From an uncultured Gammaproteobacteria bacterium (GTDB lineage Bacteria > Pseudomonadota > Gammaproteobacteria > CAWJOP01): 64,000 nt of DNA. The stretch lies in contig CAWJOP010000002.1 in the NCBI GenBank assembly GCA_963844535.1, positions 128,668 through 192,667 on the forward strand, read 5' to 3'. The first letter of the stretch is position 1, and each line of letters opens with the position of its first letter. The position numbers are program-made. Positions 3,001 through 6,000 of this stretch are shown in pieces.

Positions 3001-6000
3001 AATAAAAAATCGGTGGCCAAGCGGTCAACATACTTGCATGCATTGCTAAAGCATTTGACTCACAAATACGACCAAACTCAGCAAAATTTTGCTCGGTAAT
3101 AGCTTGGGTTAATTCATGTAGATCTTTATTAACTTTGCTAGGCCATGCTGAATAATAGCAAGAAGACTCTACAGTTTTTTGCATAGCCACACGTGAACTA
3201 ATGGGCTTTTTTTCGGGATGTAAAATTAAAAGGCCCATGCATAACGAGTTCCAAACTACGTCGATAGGTTCCGCATAGCTGTCCATGCCATCAGATTGTT
3301 TGCCTTCATGCCAGATAACAAATCCTGGCCATAATGAGCGACAGGCGCTACCACTACCTAACCGTGCTAAAATCGATAAGTACTGTGGAGTTAATTGCCA
3401 ATCAAACAAATCATTCAGCGCAAGAGTTAAAGCAGCAAACCCACAGGCAGATGAAGCCAAGCCACTAGCTGCTGGAAGATTCATCTGAGTTTCAATCCGA
3501 AATCGATAGTGATCTTGTGGTCGAATGAGATCGAGAAAAGCAATAATAGGGTTAATAAAAGTATGTTCAGCAGATAAAATTTGTTGATTGAAGATAAATT
3601 CATCTTGTGTGCTGTCAATGACTTTAACGCTGGTAAATGCCCCTTTTTCAGGTAAAGCAAGAGATAAGCTGCTGGTCTTAGGCAAATTTAGTGCTAAGTC
3701 TCGTTTTCCCCAATATTTGATCAAAGCAAAATTTACTGGTGCAAAAGCAAAGCCTTGTGCTTTGGGGATGAAGGTTTTATCGCCTAAAATGTTTTTAACA
3801 AGACGATTCATTTAGGGCCTGTTTGCATTTGATTTACCGTAGCGAAAAAAGCAGAGATTCTGCTAGAGTTTTTCCAAATCTGAGGAGAATACTAGGTCGT
3901 ATTTGACGAAGATTTGGAAAAACTCTAGCTAATCTTATGCTTTTTGCAGTAGGTAAATCAAATGCAAACAGGCCCTAATAATTCCTATTCCCACAATAAT
4001 GCACTAAATCTTTTAAAAAAGCTTCGCCAACAGGATTTAAAGATAATTTTTCAATTTCATTTAATATGCAAGCAGTGCGTTTTGTTATCACTTCATTGGC
4101 ATAAGCTAATGCGCCAGTACCAATAATAATTTTTTTTGCTAACGCTATATCTTCAGAGGTTGCATTAGGATTATTGTGCGCACGTAATAACTGTTGCTTT
4201 TGTTCTTCATTACTGTTTTCAAACGCTTTACAAATCAATAAGGTTTTTTTCCCGTGCAGTAGATCTAATGAAGCTTGCTTGCCAGTAATGTGGTCAGCAC
4301 CAAATAAACCTAAAATATCGTCTTGAATTTGAAATAAGATTCCCAAATCAATGGCTATATTTTTGATATGTGCAGTATTGCGATCATTTTGCTGTGCTAA
4401 AATAGCTGCGCTTAGTAATGGAAATTCGCTGGTGTACCGGGCAGTTTTATAGCGGTACATGGTATAAATATTGTCTTCATGTAAACTAGGTAAAGCAGTA
4501 AATGAAATGTCTAATGCTTGCCCATAACCCGCATCGATACAAATCTGTGCATATAAATCCATCACCTGATTTTTAACTGTTGTAGCAAATTCGCTGCTAG
4601 CAATAGCGCGTAGGCCTAAGTAACCAGCTAGATTTCCAACTAATATCGCCATAGATTCACCATAATAATTTTTTTCGCTATTAAATTGCTGATGAATCGT
4701 TTTACCACCACGTCTTAAATCTGATTGATCCATAATATCATCATGAATCAGTAAAAATGATTGCATTAATTCGCAAGCAATACAGATAGGGAGCAATTTT
4801 TCGGGATTTTCAGCAGAAAAACCTATATAGCCATAATAGAGTAATGCTGGCCGCGTTCTTTTACCGCCACGCAAAGTGAATTCGGCTAATTTTTCAAACA
4901 TATCTTTAGCAAGAGGCCATAAGGCTTCAACTTGCTGTCGGTAATTGTGAAAAAATGCTTCAATAGCTGGTGAGAGAATAGTTTGGAAATCTTTTAATTG
5001 ATTAGGGCCTGTTGACATTTGATTTACCGTAGCGAAAAAAGCAGAGATTCTGCTAGAATTTTCCCAAATTTGAGGAGAATACTAGGTCGTATTTGACAAA
5101 AATTTGGGAAAATTCTAGCTAATCTTATGCTTTTTGGAGTAGGTAAATCAAATGTCAACAGGCCCTGAGCATAATGGAACAGATCAATGTGACAACAAGC
5201 AGGGAAAAATGGCGACGGGAAATCACCAATGTTAATCATAAACATATTTGCGATGATCATTGCAATTGCTATTGTTATTAGTATTCATGAGTTAGGTCAT
5301 TTTTTCTTTGCTAAGTTGTTTGGTGTAAAAGTATTGCGCTTTTCCATAGGTTTTGGCAGGCCTTTGTGGCAACGAGTTGTGCGTGGCACAGAGTATGTGC
5401 TAGGTATGTTACCAATTGGCGGCTATGTTCGTTTACTAGATGAACGTGAGAGTAAGGTTGAAGCAAACGAAGTCCACTTAGCCTTTAATAGACAAGCCTG
5501 TTGGAAACGATTTTGCATTATTTTTGCTGGACCAGGATTCAATTTACTTTTTGCTTGGTTCGCTTTTTGGTTAGTGTTCACTCTCGGAATTCATTTTACT
5601 GTCCCTAAAATAGGCATGATTATTCCTGGTTCCATTGCGGCAAATGCGGGCATTTTGCCGTTTGATCAAATTCTTTCGATAGATGATCGGAAAACTTCAA
5701 ATTGGGGGGCAGTTGTGATGATGTTGGCCCTAAAATATGGTGATGTAGAGCAGATCAATGTGACAGTTTTACCCGCGGGCAAAATCAAACCTTTGGTATG
5801 TGCTTTAGATGTTCGGCAGTGGTCCCTTGATGAGCTTCATCCAAACTTAATAAAAAGTTTAGGTATAGTCGAATATCATCCTAAAGCATCTGATGCACAA
5901 TTACGCTACTTAAAATTTTCTCCTTTTGAATCAACCTGGCAGGCTGCCAAACAAGTGTGGTTTTATGTTTTTTTTAATTTTGTCATTATTTGGAAGATGA

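What the first reader, a model, noticed from the sequence alone, without database searches (positions are those of the whole stretch)
3815..5165. Family A MITE copies donate a start codon and a stop codon to flanking genes
The FPPS ATG and first five codons (MSTGP) lie inside the right TIR of copy 2 (..aaatgtcaacaggccc read on the minus strand). The FPPS stop codon overlaps the last base of copy 1. The MVD-IDI ATG lies 3 nt outside copy 1. The same element family therefore shapes translation initiation and termination signals for an operon. Terminal recruitment of this kind has been reported for Coxiella QMITEs but is rarely annotated gene by gene.
Basis: seen in the sequence. Interest (0 to 1): 0.55.

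Follow-up and report, generated by a model that had tools for sequence, protein, structure and literature searches.

The report
Mobile hairpin element supplies gene start/stop codons
A 161-bp mobile palindromic repeat has landed on TA dinucleotides exactly at gene borders in an uncultured gammaproteobacterium, cutting off one gene's own start codon and replacing it with an ATG in the repeat's end, and rebuilding stop codons for two other gene ends; this is a tidy new example of a known kind of event.

Summary
Family A is a 161-bp, TA-flanked element that is palindromic over its whole length, with copies at 3815-3975, 5005-5165 and 58345-58505.

- **Excision test:** removing each copy plus one TA restores compact, in-frame gene junctions that match orthologues lacking the element.
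- **Copy 2:** it split codons 2 and 3 of a short-chain prenyl-diphosphate synthase ("FPPS"). The old ATG (5172-5170) now opens a 5-codon ORF that ends in the repeat. The outward ATG of the terminal repeat (5018-5016) is the only canonical start within 61 codons.
- **Copy 1:** it landed in the TAA of an ancestral TAA-ATG junction. The stop became TAG, with the G supplied by the element.
- **Copy 3:** it replaced the last four codons of prlC with RAC-TGA.
- **Wider survey:** 19 complete copies were surveyed. Seven more donate stops, and a YgfZ-family gene carries the same MSTGP start.
- **Independent assembly:** a separate metagenome assembly about 98% identical carries all three insertions. FPPS dN/dS between the two is about 0.2.
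- **Not shown:** use of the ATG in vivo. In the folded transcript the ATG is buried in a -87 kcal/mol stem.

This is a new MITE family showing a known phenomenon. The start-codon replacement is the uncommon part.

The parts
3815..3975 (.). Family A element, copy 1 (161 bp; variant GTTTGCA terminal repeat). It has TA flanks at 3813-3814 and 3976-3977 and lies between the FPPS-like gene and MVD-IDI.
   Evidence: Hairpin of -91.9 kcal/mol, z = -17. Present with 1 mismatch in the independent contig L008.
5005..5165 (.). Family A element, copy 2 (161 bp; GTTGACA variant). Its flanks are TA at 5003-5004 and TG at 5166-5167. It is inserted between codons 2 and 3 of the FPPS-like gene.
   Evidence: Hairpin of -87.2 kcal/mol, z = -15.8. 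The element itself is identical in L008.
58345..58505 (.). Family A element, copy 3. It has TA flanks at 58343-58344 and 58506-58507 and is inserted in the overlap of the prlC end and the aroB start.
   Evidence: Present in the independent contig L016. Empty orthologous junctions in L032 and L033.
3975..5018 (-). Short-chain prenyl-diphosphate synthase ('FPPS'), 347 aa. It begins MSTGP encoded by the terminal repeat of copy 2 and ends in a TAG shared with copy 1.
   Evidence: The same 347-aa start was called in the NCBI/ENA and JGI records.
5016..5018 (-). Present start codon ATG of the FPPS-like gene, inside the terminal repeat of copy 2. It is the only ATG/GTG/TTG between the upstream in-frame stop (21 codons upstream) and Met41.
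   Evidence: The Shine-Dalgarno pairing of -3.1 kcal/mol equals the median of 35 window genes. P(unpaired) is about 0.001 in the folded transcript.
5155..5172 (-). Decapitated ancestral start. ATG (5172-5170) now opens ATG CTC AGG GCC TGT TGA (MLRAC*), which ends at the TGA of the other terminal repeat (5157-5155). That TGA pairs with codon 2 of the new ORF in the hairpin.
   Evidence: Read. SD pairing of -5.3 kcal/mol. Excision restores MLNQLKDF, matching the orthologues.
3975..3977 (-). FPPS-like stop codon TAG. TA is the flank (presumed target duplication) and G is the complement of the last base of copy 1. The ancestral stop is inferred to be TAA abutting the MVD-IDI ATG.
   Evidence: Orthologue junctions are TAA+5 nt+ATG (L004) and TAG+11 nt+ATG (L002).
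2279..3811 (-). Diphosphomevalonate decarboxylase + type-1 IPP isomerase fusion (510 aa). Its ATG at 3811-3809 lies 3 nt (TAA on the minus strand) beyond copy 1. Its only SD-like AGG now lies in the terminal repeat.
58495..60540 (-). Oligopeptidase A-like prlC. Its last three codons and stop (AGG GCC TGT TGA = RAC*) are encoded by copy 3. The ancestral tail is inferred to be KPNA*.
   Evidence: The tails of the orthologues are variable (L032 DVATHR*, L033 LT*).
57227..58336 (-). aroB. Its ATG lies 8 nt beyond copy 3. The repeat's ATG opens MSTGPKPNA*, which ends at the old prlC stop overlapping the aroB ATG.
10577..10600 (+). Solitary Family A terminal repeat (2 mismatches), 4 nt upstream of the pyrF-like ATG (10572-10570). 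It is a probable remnant of a fourth copy at a gene junction.
   Evidence: Also present in L008 at 6786-6809.

Best explanation
**What it is.** Family A is a non-autonomous transposable element (MITE). It is 161 bp long and self-complementary over almost its whole length. It inserts at TA dinucleotides and duplicates the TA.

**Why its ends matter.** Its ends carry coding signals as a by-product of the terminal-repeat sequence TA|GGGCCTGTTGACAT.
- Read inward, the end closes all three frames: TAG at once, TGA after 3 codons, or TGA after 6 codons.
- Read outward, the end gives ATG TCA ACA GGC CC|TA. This is in frame whenever the target TA occupies codon positions 3 and 1.

**History in this window (shown by sequence).**
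1. Copy 2 inserted in CT|TA|AT of ATG CTT AAT, at the 5' end of a prenyl-diphosphate synthase gene. The native ATG was stranded 163 nt upstream and out of frame. The repeat's ATG took its place, turning MLNQL... into MSTGPNQL....
2. Copy 1 inserted in the TA of the TAA stop of the same gene, which abutted the ATG of MVD-IDI. The upstream half re-forms a stop (TA+G) and the downstream half keeps TAA-ATG.
3. Copy 3 inserted four codons before the prlC stop, giving RAC-TGA.

**What is inferred.** Only insertions that leave both neighbouring genes translatable survive, which is why copies pile up exactly at cistron borders.

**How the buried ATG might be used (also inferred).** In the transcript the hairpin brings the old junction back together. 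The uORF or upstream-gene stop sits on the 5' side of the stem base, directly opposite the downstream start on the 3' side. A ribosome that loads at the old ribosome-binding site and terminates in the 5' arm would melt the basal stem and expose the new start. RNase III cleavage of the stem is the alternative.
For: **Element definition**
- The terminal repeat occurs 7 times against 0 expected.
- There are three 161-bp copies.
- Sixteen distinct 161/162-bp copies have mean identity 87%.
- The flanks are TA on both sides in most copies.
- All six frames contain stops.
- The hairpins are -87 and -92 kcal/mol, with z about -16 and -17.
- 21 of 66 stem pairs show compensatory double changes across copies.

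**Excision reconstructions**
- Copy 2 gives ATG CTT AAT CAA TTA AAA. The LNQL codons align with L001 GTG AGC GCA TTA AAT CAA CTA, and L002 and L004 are analogous.
- Copy 1 gives TAT TAA ATG AAT, against TAA+5 nt+ATG and TAG+11 nt+ATG in the orthologues.
- Copy 3 gives ACT AAA CCA AAT GCC TAA overlapping the aroB ATG. In L032 the prlC and aroB genes also overlap.
- No terminal repeat is found in L001-L004.

**Start codon**
- No other ATG/GTG/TTG lies between the upstream in-frame stop and Met41.
- Residues 8-40 are conserved across homologues: L8, F11, Q12 and F22 are at least 90% conserved.
- SD strength is typical for this genome.

**Persistence and selection**
- Independent JGI contigs L008 (98.7% identical) and L016 (96-97%) carry all three insertions.
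- FPPS differs between the strains by 4 synonymous and 3 non-synonymous changes. dN/dS is 0.20, with binomial P = 0.04 against neutrality.

**Generality**
- Among 19 complete copies, 7 give the stop to an ORF of at least 80 codons.
- A second gene, YgfZ family in L025, has exactly the same MSTGP start, with its old ATG (MTHAY) stranded on the other side.
- L018 has three copies at three successive junctions of a four-gene operon.
- L005, from another uncultured MAG, has an ORF ending ...SRVC* in the repeat.
Against: - No expression data exist; use of the ATG is inferred.
- In the folded transcript the ATG and its SD are fully paired (P unpaired about 0.001). Efficient initiation therefore needs an opening mechanism that has not been shown.
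- My constrained folds, with a ribosome masking the 5' arm, removed the main stem. The freed arm then re-paired in silico with leader sequence, so they do not demonstrate exposure.
- No promoter-like site lies inside the element.
- A stem followed by a T-run inside the element looks terminator-like in the sense orientation and could lower downstream expression.
- The selection test rests on 7 substitutions.
- No empty allele was found within the same population, and no autonomous partner transposase. TA duplication and mobility are inferred from flanks, frame restoration and cross-species empty sites.
- An in-frame ATG has a prior of 1 in 3 per insertion.
Confidence: 0.7

Rival explanations
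1. The insertion of copy 2 inactivated the synthase gene. The ORF still looks intact only because the event is recent. The in-frame ATG is a 1-in-3 coincidence and is not used, because it is locked in the hairpin.
For: - The ATG is fully base-paired in a -87 kcal/mol stem.
- There is a terminator-like stem plus T-run just upstream of the ATG in the sense orientation.
- No promoter is seen inside the element.
- Only 7 substitutions separate the two strains, so the dN/dS test is weak.
- The window assembly shows a broken gyrA, so some gene decay or sequencing error exists here.
Against: - The 347-codon ORF is intact in two independent assemblies, with dN/dS 0.20 and P = 0.04.
- The catalytic DDxxD motifs and 49 columns invariant across the homologues are kept.
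- A second unrelated gene (YgfZ family) has the identical rescued arrangement.
- Among 19 copies, none interrupts a long ORF out of phase.
- The downstream pathway gene MVD-IDI is intact.
Confidence: 0.15
2. The gene is functional but starts downstream of the element, at Met41 (ATG 104 nt beyond the element) or at a non-canonical codon such as ATT (Ile14 or Ile19).
For: Those codons lie outside the hairpin and would be accessible. Gene callers always prefer the longest ATG-led ORF, so the public 347-aa annotation is not independent evidence.
Against: - Residues 8-40 are conserved in all close and distant homologues. Pfam's polyprenyl_synt match starts at residue 41, right at Met41, so a Met41 start would delete the conserved N-terminal helix.
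- There is no ATG/GTG/TTG before Met41.
- The orthologues start within one codon of the present start.
Confidence: 0.07
3. The palindromes are not insertions. They are resident intercistronic regulatory hairpins (REP-like or terminator-like) into which the neighbouring genes have drifted.
For: - The hairpin is maintained by compensatory changes.
- Copies sit at cistron borders.
- There is a terminator-like sub-motif.
- No partner transposase was found.
Against: - The orthologous junctions in five related contigs are compact and lack the element.
- Removing the element plus one TA restores reading frames precisely in three independent genes.
- The stranded native ATGs are still visible.
- Copies are 66-98% identical, which is typical of a dispersed family.
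Confidence: 0.04
4. Assembly artefact: repeats were collapsed or mis-joined in a metagenome-assembled genome.
For: The window comes from an uncultured organism's assembly and shows frameshifts in gyrA.
Against: Independently assembled JGI contigs (L008, L016) show the same three insertions at the same bases, with at most one mismatch in each of copies 1 and 2 plus their flanks.
Confidence: 0.02

Closest known systems
Correia / NEMIS elements of pathogenic Neisseria
   Same: - Both are roughly 100-160-bp MITEs with about 26-nt terminal inverted repeats and TA at the termini.
- Both are often inside transcription units and fold into long hairpins in mRNA.
- Correia transcripts are cut by RNase III at the terminal repeats (review PMC10969869).
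   Different: - The terminal-repeat sequence is unrelated. An exact-pattern scan of 185,579 species genomes found this repeat only in one uncultured MAG.
- There is no IHF consensus site.
- No promoter-like site lies in the element.
- This element is palindromic over its whole length, not only at the ends.
Coxiella burnetii QMITE1 and QMITE2 (PMC5896051)
   Same: Both are MITEs whose ends overlap the 3' ends of functional genes by 1-50 bp and can supply C-terminal residues and stops. Both are highly stable hairpins. The host here is a related kind of gammaproteobacterium.
   Different: - QMITE1 is about 400 bp with an IHF site. QMITE2 is about 190 bp with 7-9-bp direct repeats. This element is 161 bp with TA.
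- The paper lists only C-terminal overlaps and has no occurrence of 'start codon' or 'N-termin'.
- This terminal repeat matched no genome contigs sequence except the uncultured MAG contig L005.
MITEAba12 of Acinetobacter (PMC6382973)
   Same: [quoted passage not shown] One copy truncates a gene with a MITE-borne stop.
   Different: - Start-codon use is only a stated possibility there. Here two genes have lost their own ATG and depend on the element's ATG.
- MITEAba12 has a different size (113 bp), different target duplication and a weak hairpin (-24 to -27 kcal/mol).
Neisseria REP2 and Borrelia IR repeats (review PMC3184786)
   Same: [quoted passage not shown]
   Different: - REP2 has no terminal inverted repeats and carries its own promoter.
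- It sits upstream of genes as a cassette rather than replacing a truncated native start.
- No promoter was detected in Family A.
Rickettsia palindromic elements (RPE)
   Same: Both are palindromic repeats of about 150 bp found inside or at protein-coding genes of an intracellular-type bacterium, tolerated because the gene product survives.
   Different: RPEs are translated through as in-frame peptide inserts. Family A has stops in all six frames, so it can only cap gene ends.

Membership tests
Bacterial MITE (generic definition) | Small (<~400 bp) and without a transposase gene | tested here: met
   161 bp. Every one of the six frames of all three copies has at least one stop.
Bacterial MITE (generic definition) | Terminal inverted repeats | tested here: met
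   Perfect 24-nt repeats in copies 1 and 2. The whole element folds as one hairpin, with 21 of 66 pairs compensatory across 16 copies.
Bacterial MITE (generic definition) | Target-site duplication | tested here: met
   Most of the 19 complete copies have TA on both sides. Removing the element plus exactly one TA restores the reading frame and the orthologue-like sequence at FPPS, prlC and the L025 YgfZ gene. This is indirect: no empty allele of the same strain was seen.
Bacterial MITE (generic definition) | Multiple dispersed copies, and filled versus empty orthologous sites | tested here: met
   There are 3 copies plus 1 remnant in 64 kb and 26 metagenome loci. The sites are empty in related organisms: L001-L004, L032 and L033.
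Bacterial MITE (generic definition) | An autonomous insertion sequence with matching terminal repeats (expected IS630/Tc1-mariner type for TA targets) | not tested
   No full-length partner was seen in the loci fetched. The longer 229- and 264-bp variants (L015, L020) were not analysed, and no IS database was available.
Correia/NEMIS | TA target duplication and a hairpin-forming element of about 100-160 bp | tested here: met
Correia/NEMIS | Correia terminal-repeat sequence; residence in Neisseria | tested here: not met
   This terminal repeat matched only one contig of an uncultured MAG among 185,579 species genomes. It was not aligned directly against the Correia consensus.
Correia/NEMIS | Central IHF-binding site (WATCAANNNNTTR; consensus from my own knowledge) | tested here: not met
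   No match on either strand of the three copies.
Coxiella QMITE1/QMITE2 | Architecture as published: about 400 bp with an IHF site, or about 190 bp with 7-9-bp direct repeats | tested here: not met
   161 bp, TA flanks, no IHF site.
Coxiella QMITE1/QMITE2 | Overlap of element ends with the 3' ends of functional genes | tested here: met
   FPPS stop (1 nt), prlC (11 nt) and five further cases. This is a 'works like' feature, not evidence of sequence kinship.
Rickettsia palindromic elements | Element is translated through in frame as a peptide insert | tested here: not met
   Stops in all six frames.
REP2-type repeat (promoter + RBS + ATG cassette) | Repeat carries an RBS and an ATG used by the downstream ORF | tested here: inconclusive
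   An ATG and an average-strength SD are present and in frame for two genes. Use is not shown, and the site is paired in the hairpin.
REP2-type repeat (promoter + RBS + ATG cassette) | Repeat carries its own promoter | tested here: not met
   The only promoter-like match in 3700-5400 lies outside the element (5195-5168, minus strand). That is fewer matches than in shuffles.

The most novel reading that the evidence does not exclude
The ends of this family may be more than accidentally codon-bearing. The element would act as a translationally 'transparent' insert for operon junctions. It closes all incoming frames within six codons and offers an outgoing SD + ATG. Because it folds into a perfect stem, it places the upstream stop codon directly opposite the downstream start codon. 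In copy 2 the uORF TGA pairs with codon 2 of the new ORF. In copy 1 the TAG and the MVD-IDI ATG flank the stem base. A terminating ribosome would then melt the stem base and hand over to the start on the other arm, giving termination-reinitiation coupling across 161 nt of RNA. The compensatory maintenance of the stem (21 of 66 pairs) would then reflect selection at the RNA level.
Probability: 0.12. Interest if true: 0.7.

Novelty: new member of a known kind. Interest (0 to 1): 0.4.

Why it matters
- **Annotation.** In repeat-rich genomes of uncultured, host-associated-type bacteria, some annotated N-termini and C-termini are encoded by mobile DNA. An apparently 'normal' start can hide a decapitated native start.
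- **A base-resolved case.** This is a case of a MITE replacing, rather than merely abutting, a start codon in a core metabolic gene, and it is seen twice: a mevalonate-pathway-linked prenyl synthase and a YgfZ-family gene. My literature searches turned up only stop-side precedents and a stated possibility for starts.
- **A testable question.** How is a start codon that is locked in an ~-87 kcal/mol stem translated?
- **Distribution.** It explains why such elements accumulate precisely at cistron borders.

Tried and rejected
- **Source genome look-up.** The look-up of encoding contigs with the window's own FPPS found nothing. The genome-contig scan for the terminal repeat returned one foreign contig and not the source genome. 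Genome-wide copy number therefore could not be measured.
- **Rfam.** No family reaches threshold. The only sub-threshold matches are to plant or animal miRNA hairpin models, which reflects the long perfect stem and nothing more.
- **Promoter scan.** No promoter-like site lies inside the element. The one outside (TTGTCA-16-TATGCT, 5195-5168, minus strand) overlaps the old ATG and is fewer than shuffles give (1 against 5.8), so I did not build on it.
- **Constrained folding.** Masking the 5' arm as a terminating ribosome would abolished the main stem, but the freed arm re-paired with arbitrary leader sequence. The result is inconclusive for the coupling idea.
- **IHF site.** None found.
- **Search for a partner transposase.**
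  - The 1.1-kb strain-specific segment at 54918-56021 shows no terminal repeats and no recognisable transposase in its ORF translations, which I read by eye without a domain search.
  - The single-repeat hits L010, L011 and L029 lie in ORF-poor DNA with no partner repeat and were set aside.
- **Literature.** No paper in the library holds both 'MITE' and the phrase 'provides the start codon', and related term searches gave no bacterial case.
- **Organism name.** Cluster look-up gave no names. AroC homologues point only to uncultured Gammaproteobacteria.
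Full report
**1. What is in the sequence**

The region 3815-5165 is bounded by two copies of a 161-bp repeat. A third copy lies at 58345-58505.
- The 24-nt end GGGCCTGTTKRCATTTGATTTACC occurs seven times in the window: three pairs in inverted orientation plus one solitary end at 10577-10600. None is expected in dinucleotide-preserving shuffles.
- The copies are 89% identical over 176 nt.
- Each copy folds as one long hairpin: -87.2 kcal/mol with z = -15.8 for copy 2, and -91.9 kcal/mol with z = -17.4 for copy 1.
- Every reading frame of every copy contains stops.
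- No Rfam family matches. The only sub-threshold hits are to miRNA-precursor hairpin models, which reflects the stem alone.

**2.

All four are correct.
- The ORF 3975-5018 (minus strand, 347 aa) is a polyprenyl synthetase (PF00348).
- Its ATG is the complement of 5016-5018, inside the terminal repeat of copy 2. ATG TCA ACA GGC CC is element sequence and the following T A is the flank.
- Its stop TAG is the complement of 3975-3977. The G is the complement of the last base of copy 1.
- The next gene, 2279-3811 (minus strand), is a diphosphomevalonate decarboxylase fused to a type-1 IPP isomerase; both equivalog models score above cut-off. It starts 3 nt beyond copy 1.
- 'FPPS' is too specific a name. 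The protein reaches no NCBIfam equivalog cut-off, and JGI names its homologues GGPP synthase type I.

**3. Insertion history**

Flanks of the three copies are TA/TA, TA/TG and TA/TA. TA on both sides predominates among 19 complete copies collected from metagenomes. Removing an element together with one TA gives the following on the minus strand.

- **Copy 2:** ...TCC ATT ATG CTT AAT CAA TTA AAA GAT TTC = MLNQLKDF.
  - The closest element-free orthologues read GTG AGC GCA TTA AAT CAA CTA AAC GAT TTT (L001, 79% aa identity), GTG AAC GAA TTA CCT CAA CTC (L002) and GTG AAT GCA TTA ACA CAA CTT (L004).
  - The reconstructed sequence therefore aligns codon for codon, and the frame is restored only if exactly 163 nt are removed.
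  - The native ATG survives at 5172-5170. It now opens ATG CTC AGG GCC TGT TGA, a 5-codon ORF that stops in the other terminal repeat.
- **Copy 1:** AAT TAT TAA ATG AAT CGT, a stop codon abutting the next start.
  - The orthologues have TAA+5 nt+ATG (L004) and TAG+11 nt+ATG (L002).
  - The insertion hit the TA of TAA. The upstream half now reads TA+G and the downstream half keeps TAA ATG.
- **Copy 3:** ATC ACT AAA CCA AAT GCC TAA, with the aroB ATG embedded (AAATGCC).
  - In the relative L032 the prlC and aroB genes also overlap, by 20 nt. In L033 they are 9 nt apart.
  - prlC now ends ...ITRAC*, with RAC and TGA coming from the element.

None of L001-L004 contains the terminal repeat.

**4. 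Not an artefact, and not very recent**

- Independently assembled JGI contigs from one metagenome reproduce the arrangement. L008 is 98.7% identical to window 3789-13741 and carries copies 1 and 2. L016 is 96-97% identical and carries copy 3.
- Between the two strains the synthase gene differs by 4 synonymous and 3 non-synonymous substitutions. dN/dS is 0.20, and the binomial P is 0.04 for at least this many synonymous changes under neutrality.
- This is weak but in the direction of continued purifying selection after the insertion.

**5. Is the repeat's ATG the start?**

- It is the only ATG/GTG/TTG between the in-frame stop 21 codons upstream and Met41.
- Residues 8-40 are conserved in homologues down to 39% identity; L8, F11, Q12 and F22 are at least 90% conserved. 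A Met41 start would delete a conserved segment.
- The orthologues begin within one codon of the present start.
- The upstream sequence pairs with the anti-Shine-Dalgarno sequence at -3.1 kcal/mol, which is exactly the median of 35 long ORFs in the window.
- Both public gene calls use this ATG, but that is not independent evidence.

Against easy use: in a transcript spanning the element the ATG has P(unpaired) of about 0.001. No promoter-like site lies inside the element. A short stem followed by TTTTTT lies about 20 nt upstream of the ATG in the sense orientation.

My judgement is that the ATG is very probably the start if the gene is expressed, and that the gene is probably expressed. Neither point is demonstrated.

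**6. The family more widely**

- A scan of 185,579 species genomes found the terminal repeat only once. That hit is in an uncultured MAG, where an ORF of at least 167 codons ends ...FSRVC* in the repeat.
- The metagenome scan gave 26 loci, most of them from the metagenome that holds the sister strain.
- Among 19 complete copies:
  - Seven supply the stop of an ORF of at least 80 codons. Three of these are TA+G = TAG, two are the TGA at element positions 9-11, and two are stops further in.
  - Two supply the only available start.
- Besides the synthase, a YgfZ-family gene in L025 (TIGR03317, 98.7 bits against a cut-off of 49) begins MSTGP|STLSIDL. Excision restores ATG ACT CAT GCT TAT AGT ACT = MTHAYST.
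- In L018, three copies occupy three successive junctions of a four-gene operon.
- No copy interrupts a long ORF out of phase.
- The geometry explains the pattern.
  - Read inward, TA|GGGCCTGTTGACATTTGA closes all three frames within six codons.
  - Read outward, ATG TCA ACA GGC CC|TA is in frame when the TA lies in codon phase 3/1. That is the phase found at FPPS, YgfZ and prlC.
  - Copies with the GTTTACA variant read ATG TAA and cannot donate a start.

**7. The hairpin is maintained**

An alignment of 16 distinct copies has 66 consensus pairs. Of these, 21 show changes on both sides that keep the pair, for example C-G/U-A at the fourth position, G-C/U-A at the tenth, and four pair types at column 60/105. 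Related copies can inflate such counts, but the symmetry is clearly preserved. The cause could be transposition, DNA-level repair or RNA function.

**8. Mechanism**

Shown: TA-targeted insertion at gene borders, and the origin of the present start and stop codons.

Inferred: survivorship of insertions whose ends keep both neighbouring genes translatable.

Hypothesis for the buried start:
- The stem re-creates the old junction in space.
- In copy 2 the uORF stop TGA (5157-5155) pairs with codon 2 (TCA) of the new ORF.
- In copy 1 the TAG and the MVD-IDI ATG flank the stem base.
- A ribosome terminating in the 5' arm must unwind the basal helix and so frees the start on the 3' arm.
- RNase III cleavage, as documented for Correia elements (PMC10969869), is an alternative.
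- My constrained folds were inconclusive.

**9. Comparison with what is known**

- The element meets the generic MITE definition except that no partner transposase was identified.
- It works like Correia/NEMIS elements in its TA target, hairpin and location within operons. It does not share their terminal repeat or an IHF site.
- It resembles Coxiella QMITEs in overlapping gene 3' ends, but the architecture differs. The QMITE paper reports only C-terminal overlaps.
- The MITEAba12 paper notes that start codons at the element ends could permit fusions.
- REP2 and the Borrelia IR repeats carry a promoter, RBS and ATG.
- RPEs are translated through, which this element cannot be.
- I found no documented bacterial case in which a MITE terminal repeat replaces a decapitated native start. 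The library is limited, so this is absence of evidence only.

**10. Verdict**

- This is a new family of a known kind of element doing a mostly known thing. The start-codon replacement, seen in two genes, and the stem-buried start are the points of interest.
- The host is an uncultured gammaproteobacterium. Its AroC homologues are all unnamed or labelled 'Gammaproteobacteria bacterium', and a relative's contig carries a Legionella_OMP gene.

Noticed in passing
window 7092-9652 (+); L008 3304-5862: gyrA is broken into three overlapping ORFs in the window (7092-7262, 7249-7854, 7763-9652). It is one intact 852-aa ORF in the 98.7%-identical contig L008. The window assembly therefore has either indel errors or a decaying gyrA.
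   Followed up: partly
window 10577-10600 (+): A solitary Family A terminal repeat (2 mismatches) sits between the stop of a small membrane-protein ORF (10609-10875, minus strand) and the ATG of a pyrF-like gene (10572-10570), 4 nt from that ATG. It is conserved in L008. It looks like a half-deleted fourth copy at a cistron border.
   Followed up: partly
L008 ~9951-10083 versus window ~13740: The sister strain carries a 133-bp insertion bounded by inverted repeats AGAGTTCTTCCCAAAC...GTTTGGAAAGAACTCT, where the window has an empty site (TTTTAGAACTCTATTGG). This is an insertion polymorphism of a different MITE family, which shows recent mobility in this population.
   Followed up: partly
window 6367-6551 and 35739-35922; 9676-9762 and 42922-43008; 21387-21557 and 47094-47264: At least three further short dispersed repeat families are present. 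One has ends TATACCTCTCGGAAACAGG...CCTGTTTCCGAGAGGTATA and lies just after rseP. One has ends TTCCCCTCACCC...GGGAGAGGGGAA and lies just after gyrA. The third is a 171-nt pair.
   Followed up: no
window 10907-11046 and 12307-12498: Two more long palindromes lie between genes. One has 66-nt arms that are 83% complementary. The other has 38-nt arms that are 92% complementary and enclose a 55-nt-arm palindrome. They lie at the junctions of two M16-peptidase-like genes.
   Followed up: no
window 54918-56021 versus L016 position 3719: About 1.1 kb is present in the window and absent from the sister-strain contig L016. It lies within ORFs of unknown function (54605-55156 and 55134-56234, minus strand). 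It shows no terminal repeats and no recognisable transposase in the ORF translations, judged by eye without a domain search.
   Followed up: partly
L018 2580-4169: Three Family A copies sit at three consecutive junctions of a four-gene minus-strand operon. Each overlaps or abuts the upstream stop. Two lie 2 nt from the downstream ATG and the third lies about 22 nt from it.
   Followed up: partly
window 3850-3864 and 5040-5054 (minus-strand sense): Each copy contains the sub-palindrome AGCAGAATCTCTGCT followed by TTTTTT in the orientation of the operon. This is an intrinsic-terminator-like motif about 20 nt upstream of the repeat's ATG.
   Followed up: no
L010 234-257, L011 6573-6596, L029 3609-3632: A 22-nt match to the terminal repeat (GGGTCTGTTGACATTTGATTTA) lies in ORF-poor, AT-rich DNA from other metagenomes, with no inverted partner nearby. 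It may be chance or an unrelated, perhaps eukaryotic, sequence.
   Followed up: partly
window 5168-5195 (-): The only sigma-70-like match near the FPPS 5' end (TTGTCA-16-TATGCT) has its -10 hexamer overlapping the stranded native ATG. The divergent rseP ATG (5229) is only 56 nt from that ATG, so the control region shared by the two genes is very short.
   Followed up: no
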